A stretch of 49,961 nucleotides of DNA from Frankiales bacterium (GCA_025464915.1 JAODNF010000341.1:1-49961); one strand, 5' to 3'; shown: positions 15,177-23,488, numbered from the stretch's first letter. A program made the numbers and translations. The notes: a model not told the origin generated them from the letters alone.

Positions 15177-15833
15177 TCATGGGTGGTCGGATCGGAGAGT
15201 GGGCCCGGGCGGGGAGCTGCGATCTGCGCGGGTGCCTCGCAACCACGAGGCGGCCTGCACCGCGGAGTGCACGTCGATCTTGCGGAACAGGCGCTGCCGG
15301 TGCGTCCGCACCGTGTTCGGCGACAGGTGCAGCTGTGCGGCGATCTCGCGGTTGGTCCGACCTGCCGCGACCAGGTCCAGGACGGTGCGCTCGCGCGGCG
15401 AGAGGTCCTGGTCGTCGACGGCGGTCCGAGGGGCGGCGATGAGCCGCTGCAGCACGCTGCCGACGAGCTCAGCGGGCACCCACATGTCACCTTCGACGAC
15501 GGCCCTGACGACGTGCAGGACGAGGCCGGGCAGGGCGTCCGCGGGCAACCAGGCCGACGCGCCAGCCCGAAGCGCGGCGAGGGTCTCGTTGACCGGATCG
15601 ATGCCCTCGGCGCTCCCGAGGGCGACGCAGAGGGCGCTGTCCGGTGCCCCGCGGCTGCCCCACGACACCCCCTGCGGCAACATGGTCTCGTCGGCGATCA
15701 GGACGTCCAGCCGGTCCAGGCCCTGCAGCGCGTCGTAGGCGCTGGTGCCCACCTCGACGACGAGGTCCGGCGCGAGGGAGGCGACAGCCGAGGCGGACGC
15801 CTCGGCGACGAGGCGCTGCCGGTGCAGCACCAT
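15177..15833 (-). CDS. LuxR/GerE-family regulator with atypical receiver domain
   Basis: The 422-aa ORF 15177..16445 reads through the upstream gene in another frame. It is trimmed to ATG 15833 (GTG 15836 is an alternative). HTH LSPRERTVLDLVAAGRTNREIAAQLHLSPNTVRTHRQRLFRKI. The receiver-like N-domain lacks the acidic pair (MVLHRQ) and the conserved Lys (WLPAD) but keeps an Asp in DVLIADE. Confidence 0.8.
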   Translation of the reverse strand: MVLHRQRLVAEASASAVASLAPDLVVEVGTSAYDALQGLDRLDVLIADETMLPQGVSWGSRGAPDSALCVALGSAEGIDPVNETLAALRAGASAWLPADALPGLVLHVVRAVVEGDMWVPAELVGSVLQRLIAAPRTAVDDQDLSPRERTVLDLVAAGRTNREIAAQLHLSPNTVRTHRQRLFRKIDVHSAVQAASWLRGTRADRSSPPGPTLRSDHP

Positions 15834-15865
15834 CACGTGGACGTGTCCTGAGCCGGGCACAGCGC

Positions 15866-16459
15866 TCACCCCTCCGCCGCGTCGGCCCACGTGCTGGCGG
15901 TGAGTGCCTCGACCTGGTTGCGGGCGTCGAGCTTCCTGCGTGCGGACTCCAGGTGCGAGCGCACGGTGTGCGGCGAGATGCCGAGCTCGGCCCCGATCTC
16001 CCGACTGGACAGGCCGTTGCCGACGAGCTCCAGGAGCTCTCGCTCGCGGTGGGTGAGGGCGGTCGGGCGGGCGTCGCGCCGGGCGGCTGCGGGCCGGGGT
16101 GTCGTGACGACCTCGGAGACGAGCTGGTCGAGAGCGGCGAGGGACAGGCTCTTGTCGGCGACGGCCCGGGCACCGGCGACCAGTGCCAGCTGCGCCACCG
16201 CCTCGGTGACCGCGCCGCTGAGCACGACGATCGTCGTGCGAGGTGCGACGACGCGGATCGCCGAGATCGCGGTCACCCCAGCCAGTAGGTCGTCCCCGAA
16301 GCGCGCGTCGAGGAGGCAGAGGTCGAACGGTGACGCCCGGAGCGCGGAGAGCGCCTCGCTGGGGTGCGACGAGACCCGGGCGGTGTGACCGCGCTCCTGG
16401 AAGTGATGAGCCAGGCAGGCGGCCAGCATGGCGTGGTCGTCGCACACCAGCACGCGCAC
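15866..16459 (-). CDS. NarL/LuxR-family response regulator (canonical receiver)
   Basis: 197 aa. VLVCDDH, DLCLLDARF, VVLSG and ADKS receiver landmarks, plus HTH LTHRERELLELVGNGLSSREIGAELGISPHTVRSHL. Confidence 0.9.
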   Translation of the reverse strand: MRVLVCDDHAMLAACLAHHFQERGHTARVSSHPSEALSALRASPFDLCLLDARFGDDLLAGVTAISAIRVVAPRTTIVVLSGAVTEAVAQLALVAGARAVADKSLSLAALDQLVSEVVTTPRPAAARRDARPTALTHRERELLELVGNGLSSREIGAELGISPHTVRSHLESARRKLDARNQVEALTASTWADAAEG

Positions 16460-17314: not shown

Positions 17315-17734
17315 ATGGACATCGGGGCGTGCGGTGCCGGGGTGTGCCCCGACGGCCGCCGCGTCGAGCTCACCATCCATGACGCGAGCTGGCGCGGCCT
17401 GCTTGCGCTGCGCGACGCCGTGGCGCACGGGACGCGTGACCCGCACACGACGGTCTGCGTCGACCTGCACGAGATCGCCTGGGAGACCGCCTCGACGTTC
17501 TGGCTCGCGGCGATCGTCTCCGCGGCGCGAGTGGCACGAGCGCGTGGCTGCGGGCTCGAGGTGCGATCGGCACCTGCCCACCTGTGTGACGCGCTTGCTC
17601 GACTGGGGCTCGGAGCACGTCAGTTCGAACCAGGTGTGCTCACCGGCGGCCTCGGGACGGCTTGGTGCCCGTTGGGAACCGCCCGCTGCTGCGCGCTCGG
17701 CAGCCAGGCAGCACTCGACGGCGCCGGCCAGTAG
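17315..17734 (+). CDS. STAS-domain (anti-sigma-factor-antagonist-like) protein
   Basis: 139 aa. VCVDLHEIAWETASTFWLAAIVSAARVARARGCGLEVRSAPAHLCDALARLGL resembles the SpoIIAA/STAS core. The SD is weak. The last 115 nt overlap the 3' end of the convergent GGDEF-EAL gene. Confidence 0.55.
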   Translation: MDIGACGAGVCPDGRRVELTIHDASWRGLLALRDAVAHGTRDPHTTVCVDLHEIAWETASTFWLAAIVSAARVARARGCGLEVRSAPAHLCDALARLGLGARQFEPGVLTGGLGTAWCPLGTARCCALGSQAALDGAGQ

Positions 17735-19314
17735 AAGCCCTGACCCTGGTCGCAGCCGCACTCACGAGCGAGCCGCAGCTGCTCCGCGCTCTCGATGCCG
17801 TTCGCCACCACGAGCAGGTCGAGCGAGTGGGCGAGCTCGCAGAGGGCACGGACGAGGGCCCGTGCACTGCGCACCGTGGGCAGCTGCCAGGTGATCGCCG
17901 GGTGCAGCTTGAGGTAGTCCAGCGGGTAGGACCAGAGGGTCGTCAGTGCCGACAGGTCGGACCCGAAGCCGTCGAGCCCCACCTGCACGCCGCCGCGACG
18001 CAGGTCCTCGAGCCGCTGCAGCGCTGCGGAGGAGGTCCTGCGCAGCACCTCCTCGCGCAGCTCGACGCGCAGCGCACCGGAGCCGGCGTGCTGATCGCTC
18101 AGGGTCTCCATCGCCCGGTCCCGCCAGGCGTCGTTCTCGAGGTCGATGCCTGCGAGGTTGAGGTCGACGGGCAGCGGGGTGGACGACCCGTCCTGGTGGG
18201 ACATCGCCTGCGCGAGAACCTCGAGGTCGAGTGCGCCGATCAGCCGCTCGGACGTCGCGATCTCCAGGAAGTCGGGTGGCCGCAGGAACTCGCCGGCCGG
18301 GCCCGGCACGCGCAACAGGGCCTCGGTCCCGATGCGCTGCCCGCTGGCCAGGTGCACGACCGGTCGATAGTCGAGAGCCACCGTGTGGGTCCGGAGGGCC
18401 TCGTGGATGACGGCTGTGACCCGCTTGCGCGTGCTCAGCCGGGCTTCGTCCCCGGCTCCCCACGCGCTCCAGCGGCCGCCACCCGCTGCCTTGGCCTGGT
18501 ACATCGCCACATCGGCTCGTCGGAGCAGCGTCTCGGTGGTCTGGGTCGCGTCGGACGTGATGGCCAGGCCGACGCTGACGGAGCAGTCGAGCTCGTGCCC
18601 CTCGACGTCGACGGCGATCAGGCCGACCGACACGATCCTCCTCGCGAGCAGCTCGGCATCCGCTGGGTCGTGCAGGTCGCCGATCAGGACGGCGAACTCG
18701 TCGCCCCCCATGCGCGCGAAGGTGTCGCCTGGACGCAGGAGCGACTGCACGCGACGGCCCAGCTCGCGCAGGACCGCGTCGCCCGCCTGGTGCCCCAGTC
18801 TGTCGTTGACCGGCTTGAGCCGGTCCAGGTCGAGGAAGAGCAGCGCCACCCAGAGCCGCTCGCGTCCCAGTCGACGCAGGGCATGCCGGGCGTGGTCGAC
18901 CAGCACAGGCCGGATCGCGGCGCCCGTGAGCTGGTCGGTGTGGGCAGCGGTCACGACGGAGACAGGGGTCGCACCGCGATCCGTCACGTCGCGCAGGTGG
19001 ACGGTCAGCTCGCCCGGATCACCGGAACGGGTGGTGACCTCGAGCTCGAACCAGTGGGGCTCGCCCGCGGGGTCGAGCAGCTCGACGCGCACCAGTTCCG
19101 CACGCCGGGACGCCGCTACGGTGTCGAGCGCCACGCGCAGCCGGAGACGGGCTGCGGGAGGGACGAGCTCGAGCAGGGAGCGCCCGGCGAGAGTGCCGTG
19201 CTCGTGGCCCATGGCTGCCCTGTAGGCGCGTGATGCGTGGACCACGACCCAGTCGGATCCGACGGCCGCCACGGCGCAGACCGCGAGGCGGTGCTCGCCG
19301 CTGCGTTCGGTCAT
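17620..19314 (-). CDS. PAS-GGDEF-EAL c-di-GMP turnover protein
   Basis: 564 aa. SD GAGGAGGAG lies before ATG 19314. PAS-like N-domain. I-site RPGD sits five residues before an intact GGDEF (RPGDTFARMGGDEFAVL). EAL domain motifs YRPVVHL, GTEALLRV, DYLKL, VANGIES and DQGQGFYW. Confidence 0.9.
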   Translation of the reverse strand: MTERSGEHRLAVCAVAAVGSDWVVVHASRAYRAAMGHEHGTLAGRSLLELVPPAARLRLRVALDTVAASRRAELVRVELLDPAGEPHWFELEVTTRSGDPGELTVHLRDVTDRGATPVSVVTAAHTDQLTGAAIRPVLVDHARHALRRLGRERLWVALLFLDLDRLKPVNDRLGHQAGDAVLRELGRRVQSLLRPGDTFARMGGDEFAVLIGDLHDPADAELLARRIVSVGLIAVDVEGHELDCSVSVGLAITSDATQTTETLLRRADVAMYQAKAAGGGRWSAWGAGDEARLSTRKRVTAVIHEALRTHTVALDYRPVVHLASGQRIGTEALLRVPGPAGEFLRPPDFLEIATSERLIGALDLEVLAQAMSHQDGSSTPLPVDLNLAGIDLENDAWRDRAMETLSDQHAGSGALRVELREEVLRRTSSAALQRLEDLRRGGVQVGLDGFGSDLSALTTLWSYPLDYLKLHPAITWQLPTVRSARALVRALCELAHSLDLLVVANGIESAEQLRLARECGCDQGQGFYWPAPSSAAWLPSAQQRAVPNGHQAVPRPPVSTPGSN

Positions 19315-19449
19315 GGCTCCTCCTCTTCTTCAGGAGGGGCGTCACGTTCGTCTGAATACCCGACGACCTGGTGCATCACGGGCGTACCTGACGTCTCTGA
19401 GGTTCTGGGGCCCGCGCATCGGTCCGGGCCTGGTGAAGGGGAGAGCCAC

Positions 19450-19713
19450 GTGCTGGAGCTCACGGACCATGCCCGGAAGATGATCGGCGAGCTCTGCGCT
19501 CGAAGGAGAAGCCCCGGCGCGGGCCTGCGCATCGCCCAGCGCCCCGCAGGGCCAGGGCTCTGCATGTCCGTGCAGGACGAGCCCGCGCCCGGTGACGTGG
19601 TCGTGAGGATCGACCAGGCGGTGCTCTACCTCGACGCCACGGCGCGCGACAGGCTCGCGGGTCAGACGTTGGATGCCCGCTCGAACGAGCTCGGCGCGGC
19701 GTTCTTCCTCTGA
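19450..19713 (+). CDS. HesB/IscA-like small protein lacking the C-terminal Cys motif
   Basis: ORF 19237..19713 trimmed to GTG 19450, preceded by GGTGAAGGGGAGAG. The 87-aa product VLELTDHARKMIGEL...GLRIAQRP...LYLDATARDRLAGQTLDA has the IscA-fold pattern but ends ELGAAFFL with no CGC motif. Confidence 0.55.
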   Translation: MLELTDHARKMIGELCARRRSPGAGLRIAQRPAGPGLCMSVQDEPAPGDVVVRIDQAVLYLDATARDRLAGQTLDARSNELGAAFFL

Positions 19714-19723
19714 GCCCCCGCCG

Positions 19724-20395
19724 TCAGAGATCTGTCGAGCCGCCCCGTCGGGCCTGCGTGAGGACGACAGCCTCCAGGCAGCTGTGCACGCCGAGCTTCT
19801 CGAACAGGTGCTGGATGTGCGTTCGCACGGTGTTGATCGACATCTCGTGACGCCGGGCGATGGCAGCCCGCGAGCTGCCCTCGACGAGACCCGCGAGGAC
19901 CTGGCGCTCTCGCGGTGTGAGGCTGGCGAACCTGGCGGTCAGGCCGTCGTCCGCTGCCCTGCGGAGCTCCTGCAGCGCCTCGCCGACCGCCCACCGCGGG
20001 AGCCACCAACCGCCGGCCGAGACCTCGCGCAGCACGCGGTCGACGTGGTCCAAGCTGTCGCTCGTGCAGGCCCAGCCCCTGGCCCCGGCGAGCACCAGGG
20101 CGGGCAGCGCGGTCTCGTCGCGGCTGACCAGCAGGACCACGACCGCTGCTTCCGGGTGCTGCGTCGTGAGCTGGGCGAGCAGCTGCCGGCCGCGGCCCTT
20201 GCTGCTCATGAGCACGGTGTGGGGCGCCGGCGGTGCTTCGCCCGAGGGGTGCAGGACCTCGACGGGTGTCGCCGCGCGGACCTGCCAGGCGCCGAAGCTC
20301 CTGGAGGTCAGTGCCATGGCGAGGCTCTCCGCGAAGGTCTTCTCCTCGTCGATGACGAGGACGTCGAGCGCACCGTGCACGAGCGGGGTGCTCAC
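19724..20395 (-). CDS. LuxR-family regulator with pseudo-receiver domain (VpsT/CsgD-like architecture)
   Basis: ORF 19724..20992 trimmed to GTG 20395, which overlaps the upstream stop as GTGA. The receiver-like domain has Ser at the acceptor position (HTVLMSSKG). The linker contains GGWWLPRWAV. HTH LTPRERQVLAGLVEGSSRAAIARRHEMSINTVRTHIQHLFEKL. Confidence 0.8.
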   Translation of the reverse strand: MSTPLVHGALDVLVIDEEKTFAESLAMALTSRSFGAWQVRAATPVEVLHPSGEAPPAPHTVLMSSKGRGRQLLAQLTTQHPEAAVVVLLVSRDETALPALVLAGARGWACTSDSLDHVDRVLREVSAGGWWLPRWAVGEALQELRRAADDGLTARFASLTPRERQVLAGLVEGSSRAAIARRHEMSINTVRTHIQHLFEKLGVHSCLEAVVLTQARRGGSTDL

Positions 20396-21012
20396 CCGCA
20401 GCGCTCGCCCTCGAGATCCGGCCACCAGTGCCGGTGAGAGTGCGCGACCGCCTCGAGGCGCGAGTGCGCGCCCAGCTTCTCGATGACGGTCTGCACGTAG
20501 CAGCGAGCGGTCGAGTGCGAGATCCCCAGGCCCGTGGCGATCTCGCGGGTCGTACGGACGTCGCGCATGAGGTCGAGCGTGCGCTGCTCCTGACGGGTGA
20601 GGAACCTCAGCCGGGTGGGGTCGGCCTGCTCGCGGGGGCTGGGCAGGGCGCCCGAGACGCATCCCGAGACAGCGAGCAGCACGTCCTTTAGGGCGTGCCC
20701 CCGGTGCAGCACGACCTGCGCGCCGGCTCTCAGCAGCGCCCGGTGCAGCGAGTGGCGCTCGAGCCCCGTGAGGCACACGATCCGAGTGGTAGGCGCAGCT
20801 CGACGGCACGCGGTCACGATCCGCTCGTCGTCGAAGGGGGTGCGGCCCCGGAGGCTGAGCACCAGCACGCTCGTCGGATCGTCGCTGACGACGCTGAGCG
20901 CGTCGAGATGCCCTTCCACGGCGTGGACCTGGCACGTGAGGGAGGCCAGCGCCAGGGCCAGCGCCTCTGCCGCGAGCAGCTGCTCGTCGCACACCACCAC
21001 CAGCTGGTGCAT
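20392..21012 (-). CDS. LuxR-family regulator with pseudo-receiver domain
   Basis: ORF 20392..21141 trimmed to ATG 21012, with a strong SD AAGGAGG upstream. VVVCDEQ, but there is no acceptor Asp (VLVLSLRG). HTH LTRQEQRTLDLMRDVRTTREIATGLGISHSTARCYVQTVIEKL. Confidence 0.8.
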   Translation of the reverse strand: MHQLVVVCDEQLLAAEALALALASLTCQVHAVEGHLDALSVVSDDPTSVLVLSLRGRTPFDDERIVTACRRAAPTTRIVCLTGLERHSLHRALLRAGAQVVLHRGHALKDVLLAVSGCVSGALPSPREQADPTRLRFLTRQEQRTLDLMRDVRTTREIATGLGISHSTARCYVQTVIEKLGAHSRLEAVAHSHRHWWPDLEGERCG

Positions 21013-21170
21013 GCGGCCACCTCCTTGCGGTCCCGGCTCGTTTGGGCAGAGCGTGCCGTCGCCCGGCCTGATACGCCGACCAGGTCGCTGACGTAGTGCG
21101 GTCGCAGGGTCCCGACCGTCACCCGACGTGGCACGGTGCACCCACAGGTCCCGTCCAGAGCCGAGGTGCC

Positions 21171-22166
21171 ATGCGGTCCGGAGTGAGCGTCATCATGCCG
21201 GTCCGGCAGGAGGGCGCGGGCCTGCGCGCGGTGCTGCGGGCAGTGCAGGACCAGGAGTGCCTCGAGGTCCTGGTGGCAGTCGGTCCGAGCACGGACGGGA
21301 CCGAGGAGCTCGTCGCCGCAGTGGCGCGCGAGGACCCGCGGGTCCGCCTGCTGCCCAATCCCGAGGGCATCGTCAGCACGGGGCTCAACCGGGCCATCCG
21401 CGAGGCCAGGGGCGGCCGGGTGGTGCGGATCGACGGTCACTGCCTCGTCCCGAAGGGCTACGTGGCAAGCCTGCTCGCGACGGCCGAGCGGACGGGCGCG
21501 AGCTGCGTCGGACCCCAGCTGCGGACCGTCGGTCGCGGCCCTGTGCAGCAGGGCATCGCCTCGGCGATGAGCTCGCCGTTCGGTGTCGGCGCGGCGCGCT
21601 TTCGCACGGGGGGTGCCTCCGGTTACGTCGACACCGTCGCTTTCGGGCTCTACGAGACCGCGCGCCTGCGCCTGCTCGGCGGGTTCCGGGAGGACCTCGT
21701 CCGCAACCAGGACGACGAGCTGAACGCACGCCTGCGACGGTCGGGCGGCACCATCTACCTCGACGCGGGCGTCACCGTCGACTACTTCCCCCGGGCGTCG
21801 TTGGTGGGCCTGTTCCGCCAGTACTACGAGTACGGCTACTGGCGCACCGTGACGGCGCGCCTGCACGGGGACGCCCTCAGACCCCGGCAGCTCGTGCCGG
21901 GTGCGTTTGTCGCCGCGGTCGCGGTCACCGTGGCGGTCGGTGCCACGGGCCGGACCGCGCCGCTCGGGGCGCTGGGTGGGTGCTACGGAGCGGTGCTCCT
22001 GCTCCTTGTGGGTCAGACGCAACGCCGGACCCGCAGTCCTGCCGTCGCGCTGCTGAGTGCCCCGGCCGCGGTCGTCCTGCACCTGTCGTACGGGCTGGGC
22101 CTGTGGCGCTCGCTGCTGAGGTGGAGCATCCTCGCGCCAGCCCGCAGGAGCGAGTCGCCGGCGTGA
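21171..22166 (+). CDS. Family 2 glycosyltransferase (ExoA-like) with C-terminal membrane helices
   Basis: ORF 21096..22166 trimmed to ATG 21171 (SD GAGGTG). GT-A motifs VSVIMPVRQE, STDGTEELV and VRIDGHC. The C-terminus has hydrophobic helices (LVPGAFVAAVAVTVAV, AVLLLLVG, LSAPAAVVLHLSYGLGLW). Confidence 0.85.
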   Translation: MRSGVSVIMPVRQEGAGLRAVLRAVQDQECLEVLVAVGPSTDGTEELVAAVAREDPRVRLLPNPEGIVSTGLNRAIREARGGRVVRIDGHCLVPKGYVASLLATAERTGASCVGPQLRTVGRGPVQQGIASAMSSPFGVGAARFRTGGASGYVDTVAFGLYETARLRLLGGFREDLVRNQDDELNARLRRSGGTIYLDAGVTVDYFPRASLVGLFRQYYEYGYWRTVTARLHGDALRPRQLVPGAFVAAVAVTVAVGATGRTAPLGALGGCYGAVLLLLVGQTQRRTRSPAVALLSAPAAVVLHLSYGLGLWRSLLRWSILAPARRSESPA

Positions 22167-23488
22167 CGACCGTCCTCGCTGGCCCGGACCGGTTGCGTGG
22201 TAGGCGAGTCCAGTGGTCGCTGGTCCCGCTGCTCACCGCCGGCGTCCTGCTCCTGGTGCCCGACCTCGACCTCGTGCACGCCTTGGTCGTGCTGTTCCTG
22301 GCCATGGCGGTGGCCTCGCTGCTGATCGCTCCCCGTGGGCTGGTCGTCGCACGCACGTTCGTCGTCGGTTACCTCGTGCTGCAGTTCCCGGTGCGGGCCC
22401 TCTTCCTGCTCACGGCGCCCAAGGAACGGCCGCCGCTCTATGCAGAGCTGGCGCCGGGAACGGGGCTGGAACCGGCCCTGGCCCAGGCTCTCGCCCAGTC
22501 CTGCGCGGGCCTGGCCGTGATGCTGCTCGCCTACTGCCTCGTGCCCAGGAAGCGCACCGAGGTCAAGACCGTCGTGGGGGCATCACTCCGCCGGGTTCCG
22601 CTGCTGTGGCTGCTCGGCGTGGCTGTCCTGCTGCTGCCGGTCGAGGTCAAGGGCGCCGCTGCCGGTGCGGTCGGCGGCAGCTTCCTGCTCAGCCTCCCCG
22701 GCCTCGCGGCGTGCGGGGCCGCGGCCGCCGTCAGCTATGCCTTCGTGCAGGAGCCCGGCCGCCACCTCGTCCCGTTCGCCCTCTGCCTCGGGTACGTCGC
22801 GGCGCGGGTCTCGCTGCTGCACAGCAAGCTGGGCCTGCTGGGGTGCCTGCTGGCACTCATCATCGGTTTCGCCGCACGAGAGCGCGAGCAAGGCCGCCGA
22901 CGGCCTGTCCCGTGGCGGGGGGCAGTCGTGCTCGTCCTGGCCGTGCTCGGCGCGCTCGTCGTCTTCGCCGTGTCCAGCGGGCGCAACCGGGGCCAGGACC
23001 TGTCAGGCGTGATCAGCCAAGGCAGCGAGGCAGCCGTGTCGCGCAGCTATGGCGTGGACGCGCTCGTCGCGTCGAACGAGCACCTGAAAGCGGGGGCCGC
23101 ACCGCTGCACGGCTCGAGCTTCCTGGACCTCGCGACGTCGTGGATCCCGCGAGGCCTCTGGCCGGACAAGCCCCGGTCCTTCTCCATCCGCTTCGGCGAG
23201 GAGGTGTTCTCCTTCTCGCACAGCGCAGGCAACGAGTTCTTCGCCCCGAGCTACTCCGGGGAGTGGCTGCTCAACTTCGGACTGGTCGGGTTGCTGGTGG
23301 GGTGGGCGGTCTTCGGGGTCGTCCTCGCGAGGGTCGACGCGATCGGCTCACTCGGCCACCGCATGCTGTGGCTGGTGCCTGCGGTCCACATGGTGGAGGG
23401 CTCGGTCGTCGCGCAGCTCTGGCTCGCGCTGCCGTTCGTGCTGGGGGGCTACGCCGTGCTCAGAGCGACTCGACCCGATCACCCTTGA
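22163..23488 (+). CDS. Wzy-type oligosaccharide repeat-unit polymerase (O-antigen polymerase/ligase-like membrane protein)
   Basis: The tail of ORF 21128..23488, starting at GTG 22163 and overlapping the GT2 stop as GTGA. About 10 or more TM helices, with a large extracytoplasmic loop containing SWIPRGLWPDKPRSF. Confidence 0.7.
   Translation: MTTVLAGPDRLRGRRVQWSLVPLLTAGVLLLVPDLDLVHALVVLFLAMAVASLLIAPRGLVVARTFVVGYLVLQFPVRALFLLTAPKERPPLYAELAPGTGLEPALAQALAQSCAGLAVMLLAYCLVPRKRTEVKTVVGASLRRVPLLWLLGVAVLLLPVEVKGAAAGAVGGSFLLSLPGLAACGAAAAVSYAFVQEPGRHLVPFALCLGYVAARVSLLHSKLGLLGCLLALIIGFAAREREQGRRRPVPWRGAVVLVLAVLGALVVFAVSSGRNRGQDLSGVISQGSEAAVSRSYGVDALVASNEHLKAGAAPLHGSSFLDLATSWIPRGLWPDKPRSFSIRFGEEVFSFSHSAGNEFFAPSYSGEWLLNFGLVGLLVGWAVFGVVLARVDAIGSLGHRMLWLVPAVHMVEGSVVAQLWLALPFVLGGYAVLRATRPDHP

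What the first reader, a model, noticed from the sequence alone, without database searches (positions are those of the whole stretch)
19994..20005. VpsT-like c-di-GMP-binding motif candidate (W-L-P-R) in the linker of a pseudo-receiver LuxR regulator
In Vibrio cholerae VpsT, a LuxR/CsgD-family regulator with a non-canonical receiver, c-di-GMP binds a W[F/L/M][T/S]R motif located just after the receiver fold. Binding drives dimerisation and activates polysaccharide genes. The regulator at 19724-20395 has the same architecture, with a receiver lacking the acceptor Asp. In the equivalent linker position it reads G-G-W-W-L-P-R-W (codons 130-135; TGG CTC CCG CGG on the minus strand at 20005-19994). 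The Trp and Arg are kept, but Pro replaces Thr/Ser. Its paralog at 15177-15833 reads D-M-W-V-P-A and lacks the Arg. With a GGDEF-EAL gene 410 nt away and glycan operons on both sides, this protein is my best guess for the c-di-GMP receptor of the locus. It is a near-match only, and the call is an inference.
Basis: partly seen in the sequence, partly recalled or inferred. Interest (0 to 1): 0.6.

Follow-up and report, generated by a model that had tools for sequence, protein, structure and literature searches.

The report
Proline-variant VpsT-like motif in actinobacterial regulator
The W-L-P-R stretch is real and lines up with the cyclic-di-GMP site of the Vibrio regulator VpsT, but it is the proline form that works without the signal in Vibrio and is largely the normal sequence of this regulator subfamily, so the gene is most likely an ordinary signal-independent partner regulator of a sugar-polymer operon.

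Summary
The 223-aa regulator at 19724-20395 (-) reads W130-W131-L132-P133-R134-W135. HMMER aligns WLPR without gaps onto WLTR of VpsT. In a confident AlphaFold model the motif sits at the start of a long helix α6.

The functional reading is not well supported, for four reasons.
1. WLPR is the published "proline variant" found in V. vulnificus BrpT and V. cholerae QstR. Both work independently of c-di-GMP, and BrpT binds it with a Kd of about 135 µM against 3.2 µM for VpsT.
2. Among the 147 nearest family representatives, Trp (51%) and Pro (84%) at these positions are the subfamily consensus (W-Φ-P-P). None carries the canonical W[FLM][TS]R. Only Arg134 and Trp130 are specific to this clade.
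3. Motif integrity and a neighbouring GGDEF-EAL gene do not co-vary. Two divergent orthologues keep WWLPR without that neighbour, and one lineage has WMPH with it.
4. By sequence profile the protein is closer to NarL, VraR and DevR than to VpsT, and by fold VpsT ranks no better than other NarL-family regulators.

The most likely reading is an atypical regulator that cannot be phosphorylated. It is usually coupled to an upstream LuxR partner, and single-chain fusions of two such modules exist. It probably controls the divergent GT2/Wzy operon. I put direct c-di-GMP sensing at about 10%.

The parts
19724..20395 (-). LuxR-B: a 223-aa atypical NarL/FixJ-type regulator made of a pseudo-receiver and a GerE helix-turn-helix. 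It uses a GTG start.
   Evidence: ORF and translation. Pfam finds GerE at residues 158-212 and no Response_reg hit. AlphaFold2 model with pLDDT 92.4. NarL, VraR and DevR are the full-length PDB matches to the clade profile.
19994..20005 (-). Codons for W131-L132-P133-R134, the 'proline variant' of the VpsT W[F/L/M][T/S]R motif.
   Evidence: W130, W131 and P133 are invariant and R134 is present in 11 of 12 orthologues at 38-100% identity.
20018..20368 (-). Pseudo-receiver with a (βα)5 fold, residues 10-126. Ser64 sits at the acceptor position at the end of β3, and D16 is retained.
   Evidence: Secondary structure of the model and alignments.
19925..19996 (-). Long helix α6, residues 134-157. 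It begins at R134. L141 aligns with VpsT I141 and QstR L137, the residue of the dimer interface.
19760..19924 (-). GerE/LuxR-type helix-turn-helix DNA-binding domain, residues 158-212.
   Evidence: Pfam PF00196, E = 3e-15.
20392..21012 (-). LuxR-A: the upstream LuxR-type partner with a degenerate receiver. Its TGA stop overlaps the GTG start of LuxR-B (GTGA).
   Evidence: The same 4-nt overlap is called in L001, L002, L003, L005 and L006, and the A/B pair is also adjacent in L011 and L012 by tblastn. LuxR-A is absent upstream in L004.
21096..23488 (+). Divergently transcribed GT2 glycosyltransferase and Wzy-like repeat-unit polymerase. These are the likely target operon.
   Evidence: Pfam GT2. 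NCBIfam glyco_rpt_poly, below its cut-off. Synteny with the LuxR-A/B pair is kept in all loci that extend that far.
17620..19314 (-). PAS-GGDEF-EAL protein. GGDEF is intact with an RxxD I-site. The EAL domain has lost three catalytic residues, and these losses are conserved in orthologues.
15177..15833 (-). LuxR-D: a paralogous pseudo-receiver regulator reading G-D-M-W-V-P-A. It is the downstream member of a second LuxR pair.

Best explanation
LuxR-B is an atypical NarL/FixJ-family transcription factor that cannot be phosphorylated. It belongs to a mainly actinobacterial subfamily in which the α5/α6 junction reads G-E-x-W-Φ-P-P.

In this reading the Trp and Pro are structural. They cap and anchor the long helix α6 that links the pseudo-receiver to the helix-turn-helix, and α6 probably forms the dimer interface. 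The narrow WW[L/M/V/F]PR clade has changed the fourth residue to Arg and added a second Trp.

The protein most likely acts as a dimer that does not depend on c-di-GMP. Usually this would be a heterodimer with LuxR-A, the product of the translationally coupled upstream gene. The pair would bind the short divergent promoter region and control the GT2/Wzy glycan operon and its own operon.

This follows BrpT and QstR, which carry the identical WLPR and work without c-di-GMP. If c-di-GMP influences the pair, it more likely acts indirectly, through expression or through another receptor.

Shown here: the sequence, the positional equivalence to VpsT, the fold, the conservation, the synteny and the existence of fusions. 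Inferred: dimerisation through α6, heterodimerisation with LuxR-A, the target operon and the lack of physiological c-di-GMP binding.
For: - WLPR aligns on VpsT WLTR and sits at the start of α6.
- QstR and BrpT carry the same WLPR and function independently of c-di-GMP. QstR R130A has only a modest effect, and P129T creates c-di-GMP dependence. BrpT Kd is 135.4 µM against 3.2 µM for VpsT.
- Among the 147 nearest representatives out of 1.84 billion proteins, W131 is present in 51%, P133 in 84%, P134 in 60% and R134 in 12%. Canonical W[FLM][TS]R is present in 0 of 147.
- 91 of those 147 lack an Asp at the acceptor position.
- The gene overlaps LuxR-A by 4 nt in the window and in L001, L002, L003, L005 and L006, and the pair is also adjacent in L011 and L012.
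- 24 of the 150 best hits are single polypeptides of more than 400 aa with two matches to the profile. In the six sequences I read, each half is a receiver-like region followed by a helix-turn-helix. In most of them the C-terminal module matches LuxR-B or LuxR-D best.
- The LuxR-A/B pair, the divergent GT2 and Wzy genes and UDP-glucose dehydrogenase are conserved even where the GGDEF-EAL module is missing.
- L141 is conserved at the position of the VpsT I141 / QstR L137 interface residue.
- Heterodimers of atypical NarL-type regulators have an actinobacterial precedent in BldM-WhiI (PMC4125116).
Against: - W130, W131, P133 and R134 are kept across 38-100% identity. Arg134 and Trp130 are clade-specific gains, which calls for a specific function that a purely structural role does not fully explain.
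- In the closer orthologues a PAS-GGDEF-EAL gene is a conserved neighbour.
- The genome has 44 GGDEF matches and no PilZ match, so unrecognised receptors must exist.
- The precedents for ligand independence are all from Vibrio proteins that are only distantly related.
- No dimer model or binding data could be produced here.
- LuxR-A is absent upstream of the L004 orthologue, so a heterodimer is not obligatory.
Confidence: 0.6

Rival explanations
1. One reading: LuxR-B is a VpsT-like direct c-di-GMP sensor. An intercalated c-di-GMP dimer would bind W131 and R134 of two protomers at the base of α6, drive dimerisation and switch on the glycan genes.
For: - The position is exactly equivalent to VpsT W131-R134. 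VpsT K120 aligns with R120, and I141 with L141.
- W130, W131, P133 and R134 are strongly conserved in the clade.
- Arg134 is a clade-specific gain on a W-Φ-P-P background.
- A GGDEF-EAL gene with an intact GGDEF motif is a conserved neighbour in the closer orthologues.
- The genome is rich in GGDEF domains and has no PilZ match.
Against: - The identical WLPR variant binds c-di-GMP about 40-fold more weakly (BrpT) and is functionally signal-independent (BrpT, QstR).
- The lineage of G247 and P0010 has WMPH, having lost the Arg that is essential in VpsT, yet it keeps the GGDEF-EAL neighbour.
- The orthologues in G086 and G132 keep WWLPR without any GGDEF-EAL neighbour.
- Position 120 varies among orthologues (R, Q or L).
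- There is no particular similarity to VpsT. The clade profile matches NarL, VraR and DevR at full length (E = 1e-19 to 1e-17) but matches VpsT only over its C-terminal part (E = 3e-12). Foldseek ranks VpsT 19th to 27th with the same TM-score as other family members.
Confidence: 0.1
2. LuxR-B does sense a small ligand, but not through a VpsT-type site. One option is c-di-GMP bound by the C-terminal domain, as reported for M. smegmatis DevR. Another is a different metabolite bound by the pseudo-receiver.
For: - DevR is the best single-sequence PDB hit. M. smegmatis DevR is reported to bind c-di-GMP through its C-terminal domain with a Kd of 1.96 µM (review PMC12564702).
- The pseudo-receiver is well folded and conserved, which suggests it has some input.
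Against: There is no sequence evidence for such a site, and the DevR residues involved were not available to compare. The idea is speculative.
Confidence: 0.1
3. The c-di-GMP-sensing element of this locus lies elsewhere. The PAS-GGDEF-EAL protein itself could sense c-di-GMP through its RxxD I-site and its conserved but catalytically degenerate EAL domain, as LapD and FimX do. LuxR-B would then sit downstream or be unconnected.
For: - The EAL domain keeps EALxR, N, ExxE, K and QG. Against active EAL domains it has DDFGTG changed to DGFGSD, KID changed to KLH and EGVE changed to NGIE. The same losses are present in five orthologues.
- RxxD lies five residues before GGDEF.
Against: A degenerate EAL domain does not necessarily bind c-di-GMP. 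No output partner has been identified. This reading does not explain the conservation of WWLPR.
Confidence: 0.2

Closest known systems
BrpT (Vibrio vulnificus), QstR (V. cholerae), ScrP/RbrO (V. parahaemolyticus / V. alginolyticus): 'proline variant' VpsT homologues
   Same: They carry the identical tetrapeptide W-L-P-R at the same place before helix α6. The domain order is a receiver-like domain followed by a LuxR helix-turn-helix. A hydrophobic residue sits at the α6 dimer position (QstR L137, L141 here). BrpT also regulates polysaccharide genes.
   Different: Only the C-terminal half is detectably similar to the VpsT family. The phylum is different. Here Pro is the ancestral state of the subfamily rather than a derived variant. 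This protein has an extra invariant Trp130, lacks an acceptor Asp, and is usually paired with a second LuxR gene.
VpsT (V. cholerae; PDB 3KLN/3KLO)
   Same: The W and R positions, the basic residue at position 120, the hydrophobic residue at 141, an α6 helix after the receiver, and a link to polysaccharide genes.
   Different: Pro replaces the Thr/Ser of the motif. The VpsT receiver domain is not matched by the clade profile. VpsT is not among the best structural matches (rank 19-27, TM-score 0.47-0.48, the same as other NarL-type regulators).
NarL / VraR / LiaR / DevR response regulators (NarL/FixJ family)
   Same: These are the best full-length sequence and fold matches. They share the (βα)5 receiver, a linker helix and a four-helix GerE domain.
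   Different: This protein has no phospho-acceptor Asp, and the conserved Lys is replaced in this copy (T111). There is no cognate kinase for this pair. The WWLPR junction replaces their G-E-x-V/L-L/F-x-x.
BldM-WhiI atypical response-regulator heterodimer (Streptomyces)
   Same: Actinobacterial NarL-type regulators whose action does not depend on phosphorylation and which work as a heterodimer (PMC4125116).
   Different: bldM and whiI are not adjacent or fused. No close sequence relationship was shown here. Heterodimerisation of LuxR-A and LuxR-B is inferred from gene overlap and from fusion proteins only.

Membership tests
VpsT-type c-di-GMP-sensing LuxR/CsgD regulators | W[F/L/M][T/S]R motif at the base of α6 | tested here: not met
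   The motif reads W-L-P-R, so the third position (Thr/Ser) is not met. This is the published proline variant.
VpsT-type c-di-GMP-sensing LuxR/CsgD regulators | The motif lies at the homologous position, after the receiver fold at the start of an extra helix α6 | tested here: met
   An ungapped phmmer alignment places it on VpsT WLTR. In the AlphaFold model α5 ends at residue 126 and α6 spans 134-157.
VpsT-type c-di-GMP-sensing LuxR/CsgD regulators | Overall sequence or fold kinship with VpsT/CsgD above other NarL-family members | tested here: not met
   With the clade profile, NarL, VraR and DevR score E = 1e-19 to 1e-17 at full length, while VpsT scores 3e-12 over its C-terminal half only. 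Foldseek ranks VpsT 19-27. NCBIfam CsgD scores 39 bits against a cut-off of 250.
VpsT-type c-di-GMP-sensing LuxR/CsgD regulators | Micromolar c-di-GMP binding and c-di-GMP-dependent dimerisation | not testable with these tools
   This needs ITC, MST or DRaCALA and SEC-MALS. The only proxy is BrpT (WLPR), with a Kd of 135.4 µM.
Proline-variant (WLPR) signal-independent VpsT-like regulators (BrpT/QstR type) | W-L-P-R at the VpsT motif position plus a hydrophobic α6 interface residue | tested here: met
Proline-variant (WLPR) signal-independent VpsT-like regulators (BrpT/QstR type) | Common descent with the Vibrio VpsT clade | tested here: not met
   The nearest relatives are actinobacterial W-Φ-P-P proteins. 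The resemblance is best read as a parallel state within the NarL/FixJ superfamily.
NarL/FixJ-family response regulators, atypical (pseudo-receiver) subclass | (βα)5 receiver-like fold plus a C-terminal GerE helix-turn-helix | tested here: met
NarL/FixJ-family response regulators, atypical (pseudo-receiver) subclass | Loss of the phospho-acceptor Asp | tested here: met
   S64 sits at the end of β3, and orthologues have S, C, V or A there.

The most novel reading that the evidence does not exclude
The WW[L/M/V/F]PR clade of actinobacterial pseudo-receiver LuxR regulators gained Arg134 and Trp130 on a W-Φ-P-P scaffold. It could be an independently evolved VpsT-like c-di-GMP sensor that couples a local PAS-GGDEF-EAL enzyme to glycan-operon transcription, in a lineage with 44 GGDEF matches and no PilZ match. 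This would be a c-di-GMP-binding proline-form site that behaves unlike the Vibrio WLPR proteins.
Probability: 0.1. Interest if true: 0.6.

Novelty: new member of a known kind. Interest (0 to 1): 0.27.

Why it matters
It would also supply a receptor for an actinobacterial lineage that is rich in GGDEF domains but has no PilZ match.

The evidence points the other way. The motif is the form already shown to be signal-independent, and it is mostly a subfamily hallmark. The useful results are these:
- A caution that W-x-P-R at the α5/α6 junction of NarL-type regulators is not a predictor of c-di-GMP binding.
- A description of a large subfamily of atypical regulators with a W-Φ-P-P junction. Its members often occur as adjacent gene pairs or as single-chain two-module proteins.
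- A conserved regulatory island (two LuxR pairs, a kinase, a STAS protein, a GGDEF-EAL enzyme with a degenerate EAL domain, and an ECF sigma factor) inside a glycan locus.

Tried and rejected
- I tried to read Krasteva 2010 (PMC2828054), Chodur 2017 (PMC5585709) and Kimbrough 2020 (PMC7043675). None is held, so their findings are cited second-hand from papers that describe them.
- A scan for sigma-70 promoters, terminators and inverted repeats between 19200 and 21250 gave nothing usable.
- Pfam and NCBIfam give no curated family for LuxR-B above their cut-offs.
- No dimer or ligand-bound structure could be predicted with the available tool, and the model's coordinates could not be read. Burial or exposure of W130 and W131 was therefore not assessed.
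- I rejected 'chance tetrapeptide without function', because W130, W131 and P133 are invariant across 38-100% identity.
- I rejected 'next to a GGDEF gene means receptor', because the genome has 44 GGDEF matches and the linkage breaks in divergent orthologues.

Full report
**Observation.**
The ORF at 19724-20395 on the minus strand encodes a 223-aa protein. Its GTG start overlaps the TGA stop of the upstream LuxR-type gene as GTGA. Codons TGG CTC CCG CGG at 20005-19994 encode W131 L132 P133 R134, in the context G-G-W-W-L-P-R-W (residues 128-135). Pfam finds only a GerE/LuxR helix-turn-helix at residues 158-212 and no receiver domain. The paralogue at 15177-15833 reads G-D-M-W-V-P-A. The PAS-GGDEF-EAL gene (17620-19314) lies 410 nt downstream.

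**Positional equivalence to VpsT.**
- phmmer against PDB sequences finds VpsT (3kln_A) at E = 4e-8. Query residues 111-213 align without gaps to chain residues 112-214. 'ggwwlprwavgeal' lies on 'demwltrklaqeyi', so WLPR falls exactly on WLTR.
- A review lists K120, W131, L132, T133 and R134 as the VpsT contacts to c-di-GMP (PMC7288161). In the query the aligned residues are R120, W131, L132, P133 and R134.
- VpsT I141 (QstR L137) is the residue of the c-di-GMP-dependent dimer interface. It aligns with L141.
- An AlphaFold2 model built on 50 homologues is confident (pLDDT 92.4, pTM 0.76). It shows a (βα)5 receiver-like fold at residues 10-126, a loop at 127-133, a 24-residue helix α6 at 134-157 and a four-helix helix-turn-helix at 161-219. 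W-L-P therefore precedes α6 and R134 is its first residue.
- The acceptor position at the end of β3 is S64, and orthologues have S, C, V or A there. This confirms a pseudo-receiver.

**What is already known about exactly this variant.**
- WLPR is the published 'proline variant' of the motif. V. cholerae QstR carries WLPR. Restoring Thr (P129T) makes QstR strictly dependent on c-di-GMP, whereas wild-type QstR works at low c-di-GMP. R130A has only a 10-fold effect. A proteome-wide screen did not pick QstR up as a c-di-GMP binder (PMC6237807).
- The same paper and PMC6113621 report, citing Chodur et al. 2017, that V. vulnificus BrpT has WLPR and binds its promoters without first binding c-di-GMP.
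- A review table gives the BrpT Kd as 135.4 µM against 3.2 µM for VpsT (PMC10519070).
- V. alginolyticus RbrO (VA2703) also has WLPR and, unlike its WLSR and WFSR paralogues, was not predicted to be a receptor (PMC13726011).
- The 'near match' is therefore an exact match to the form known to remove dependence on the signal.

**Family context.**
- A profile of the orthologue clade matches NarL, VraR and DevR over their full length (E = 1e-19 to 1e-17). It matches VpsT only over the C-terminal half (E = 3e-12).
- Foldseek ranks LiaR, VraR, StyR and others first. VpsT comes 19th to 27th, with the same TM-score of about 0.47.
- No NCBIfam model passes its cut-off.
- A profile search of 1.84 billion representative proteins returned the 150 nearest clusters. 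For 147 of them the aligned site could be read:

| Position | Residue | Count of 147 | Share |
|---|---|---|---|
| 131 | Trp | 75 | 51% |
| 133 | Pro | 124 | 84% |
| 134 | Pro | 88 | 60% |
| 134 | Arg | 17 | 12% |

- The subfamily consensus at this junction is G-E-[TAS]-W-[ILV]-P-P-x-L-L.
- None of the 147 carries canonical W[FLM][TS]R. Strict W[FLM]PR occurs in four of them.
- 91 of the 147 lack an Asp at the acceptor position.
- An earlier, less sensitive set of 110 homologues gave the same picture for Pro (60%).
- Trp131 and Pro133 are thus hallmarks of a largely atypical actinobacterial subfamily. Only Arg134 and Trp130 are specific to the narrow clade: WWLPR, WWMPR, WWVPR and WWFPR.
- Within that clade W130, W131 and P133 are invariant, and R134 is present in 11 of 12 sequences across 38-100% identity. 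The segment is functionally constrained, but this does not say for what.

**Genomic context.**
- The window comes from a 3.8-Mb metagenome-assembled genome of 501 contigs. NCBI names two of the homologues as coming from 'Frankiales bacterium'.
- Orthologues were found only in the same genus (3 of 10 other genomes) and in none of the roughly 290 other genomes sampled from the order.
- In the closer orthologous loci (55-63% identity: L001, L002, L004, L005, L006 and G247) the module is conserved inside a glycan cluster. Its order is LuxR-A, LuxR-B, PAS-GGDEF-EAL, STAS protein, sensor-less kinase, response regulator, LuxR-D, ECF sigma factor.
- The two more divergent orthologues (G086 at 46% identity, G132 at 40%) keep G-[EQ]-W-W-L-P-R, LuxR-A, and the divergent GT2, Wzy-like and UDP-glucose-dehydrogenase genes. 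They have no GGDEF-EAL, STAS, kinase or sigma module. In G132 a polysaccharide lyase lies downstream instead.
- Conversely, the G247 / P0010 lineage (a cluster of 10 sequences) reads W-M-P-H. It has lost the Arg that is essential in VpsT, yet it keeps the GGDEF-EAL neighbour.
- Motif integrity and a diguanylate-cyclase neighbour therefore do not co-vary.
- The genome has 44 GGDEF matches, about one per 86 kb, so adjacency is weak evidence in any case. No PilZ domain was found. Unknown receptors must therefore exist, but nothing singles out this protein.

**Most likely mechanism.**
- LuxR-B overlaps LuxR-A by 4 nt in the window and in L001, L002, L003, L005 and L006. The pair is also adjacent in L011 and L012 by tblastn. 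L004 lacks LuxR-A.
- The window holds a second pair of the same design: the phosphorylatable regulator LuxR-C followed by the pseudo-receiver LuxR-D, which carries W-V-P-A.
- 24 of the 150 nearest hits are single chains of more than 400 aa with two matches to the profile. In the six sequences I read, each half is a receiver-like region followed by a helix-turn-helix. In most of them the C-terminal module matches LuxR-B or LuxR-D best.
- Such fusions argue that the two kinds of module act together on DNA. There is an actinobacterial precedent in the BldM-WhiI heterodimer of atypical NarL-type regulators (PMC4125116).
- I therefore read LuxR-B as the atypical half of a two-protein regulator. It would dimerise through the α6 region without needing c-di-GMP, as QstR does through L137. 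It would control the divergent GT2/Wzy operon and its own operon.
- The steps from 'fusion and overlap' to 'heterodimer', from synteny to 'target operon', and from the Vibrio precedents to 'no physiological c-di-GMP binding' are inferences.

**Rivals.**
- Direct VpsT-like sensing remains possible, at about 10%. Arg134 and Trp130 are conserved, clade-specific gains in a region rich in residues that can stack on guanine.
- Ligand sensing at another site is conceivable. M. smegmatis DevR is reported to bind c-di-GMP through its C-terminal domain.
- The PAS-GGDEF-EAL protein itself has an RxxD I-site and an EAL domain with three catalytic residues replaced. DDFGTG has become DGFGSD, KID has become KLH and EGVE has become NGIE. 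The same changes are present in five orthologues. It is therefore at least as good a candidate for a c-di-GMP-binding element of the locus.

**Verdict.**
The functional inference is probably wrong. This is a new member of a known kind: an atypical NarL/FixJ regulator that carries the already described proline form of the motif. Interest is modest.

Noticed in passing
window 17620-19314 (-): The PAS-GGDEF-EAL protein has an intact GGDEF motif with an RxxD I-site. Its EAL domain has lost three catalytic or metal-binding residues relative to active EAL domains (DDFGTG to DGFGSD, KID to KLH, EGVE to NGIE). The same losses are conserved in five orthologues. It is probably a diguanylate cyclase with an inactive EAL domain that may still bind c-di-GMP.
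   Followed up: partly
whole genome G000: The 3.8-Mb genome (92% complete) has 44 GGDEF matches but no PilZ match. The lineage is rich in c-di-GMP enzymes, and its receptors are unrecognised.
   Followed up: partly
proteins P0124-P0250, related to window 19724-21012 and 15177-16459: Twenty-four of the 150 nearest family representatives are single polypeptides of more than 400 aa with two matches to the profile. In the six I read, each half is a receiver-like region plus a helix-turn-helix. They mirror the adjacent LuxR gene pairs of the window. This tandem architecture may deserve its own study.
   Followed up: partly
window ~21013-21140 (upstream of LuxR-A, minus strand); L001 8475-8707; L005; L012; L004 ~150-190: The regulators' upstream region carries conserved boxes: GGACC-N14/15-CGTC, which resembles an ECF-sigma promoter, and GTATCA[G/C]G. 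The latter is also present upstream of the solo LuxR-B gene of L004.
   Followed up: no
window 19237-19713 (+): An ORF converges on LuxR-B in the gap before the GGDEF-EAL gene. An opposite-strand ORF is called at the same place in L001, L002 and L004. NCBIfam gives a weak, below-cut-off match to the iron-sulfur cluster assembly accessory protein family (TIGR00049, 25.7 bits against a cut-off of 58.8). If it is a real gene, LuxR-B and the GGDEF-EAL gene are not one operon.
   Followed up: partly
P0037, P0058: Two actinobacterial NarL-type regulators with a canonical acceptor Asp read W-V-S-R at the same junction. This is closer to the canonical VpsT motif (Ser at position 3) than the protein studied here.
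   Followed up: no
L012 7066-8739 (-) (genome G132): Where the GGDEF-EAL module is missing, a secreted-type polysaccharide lyase with FN3 domains lies downstream of the LuxR-A/B pair. This fits a role of the pair in glycan metabolism.
   Followed up: no
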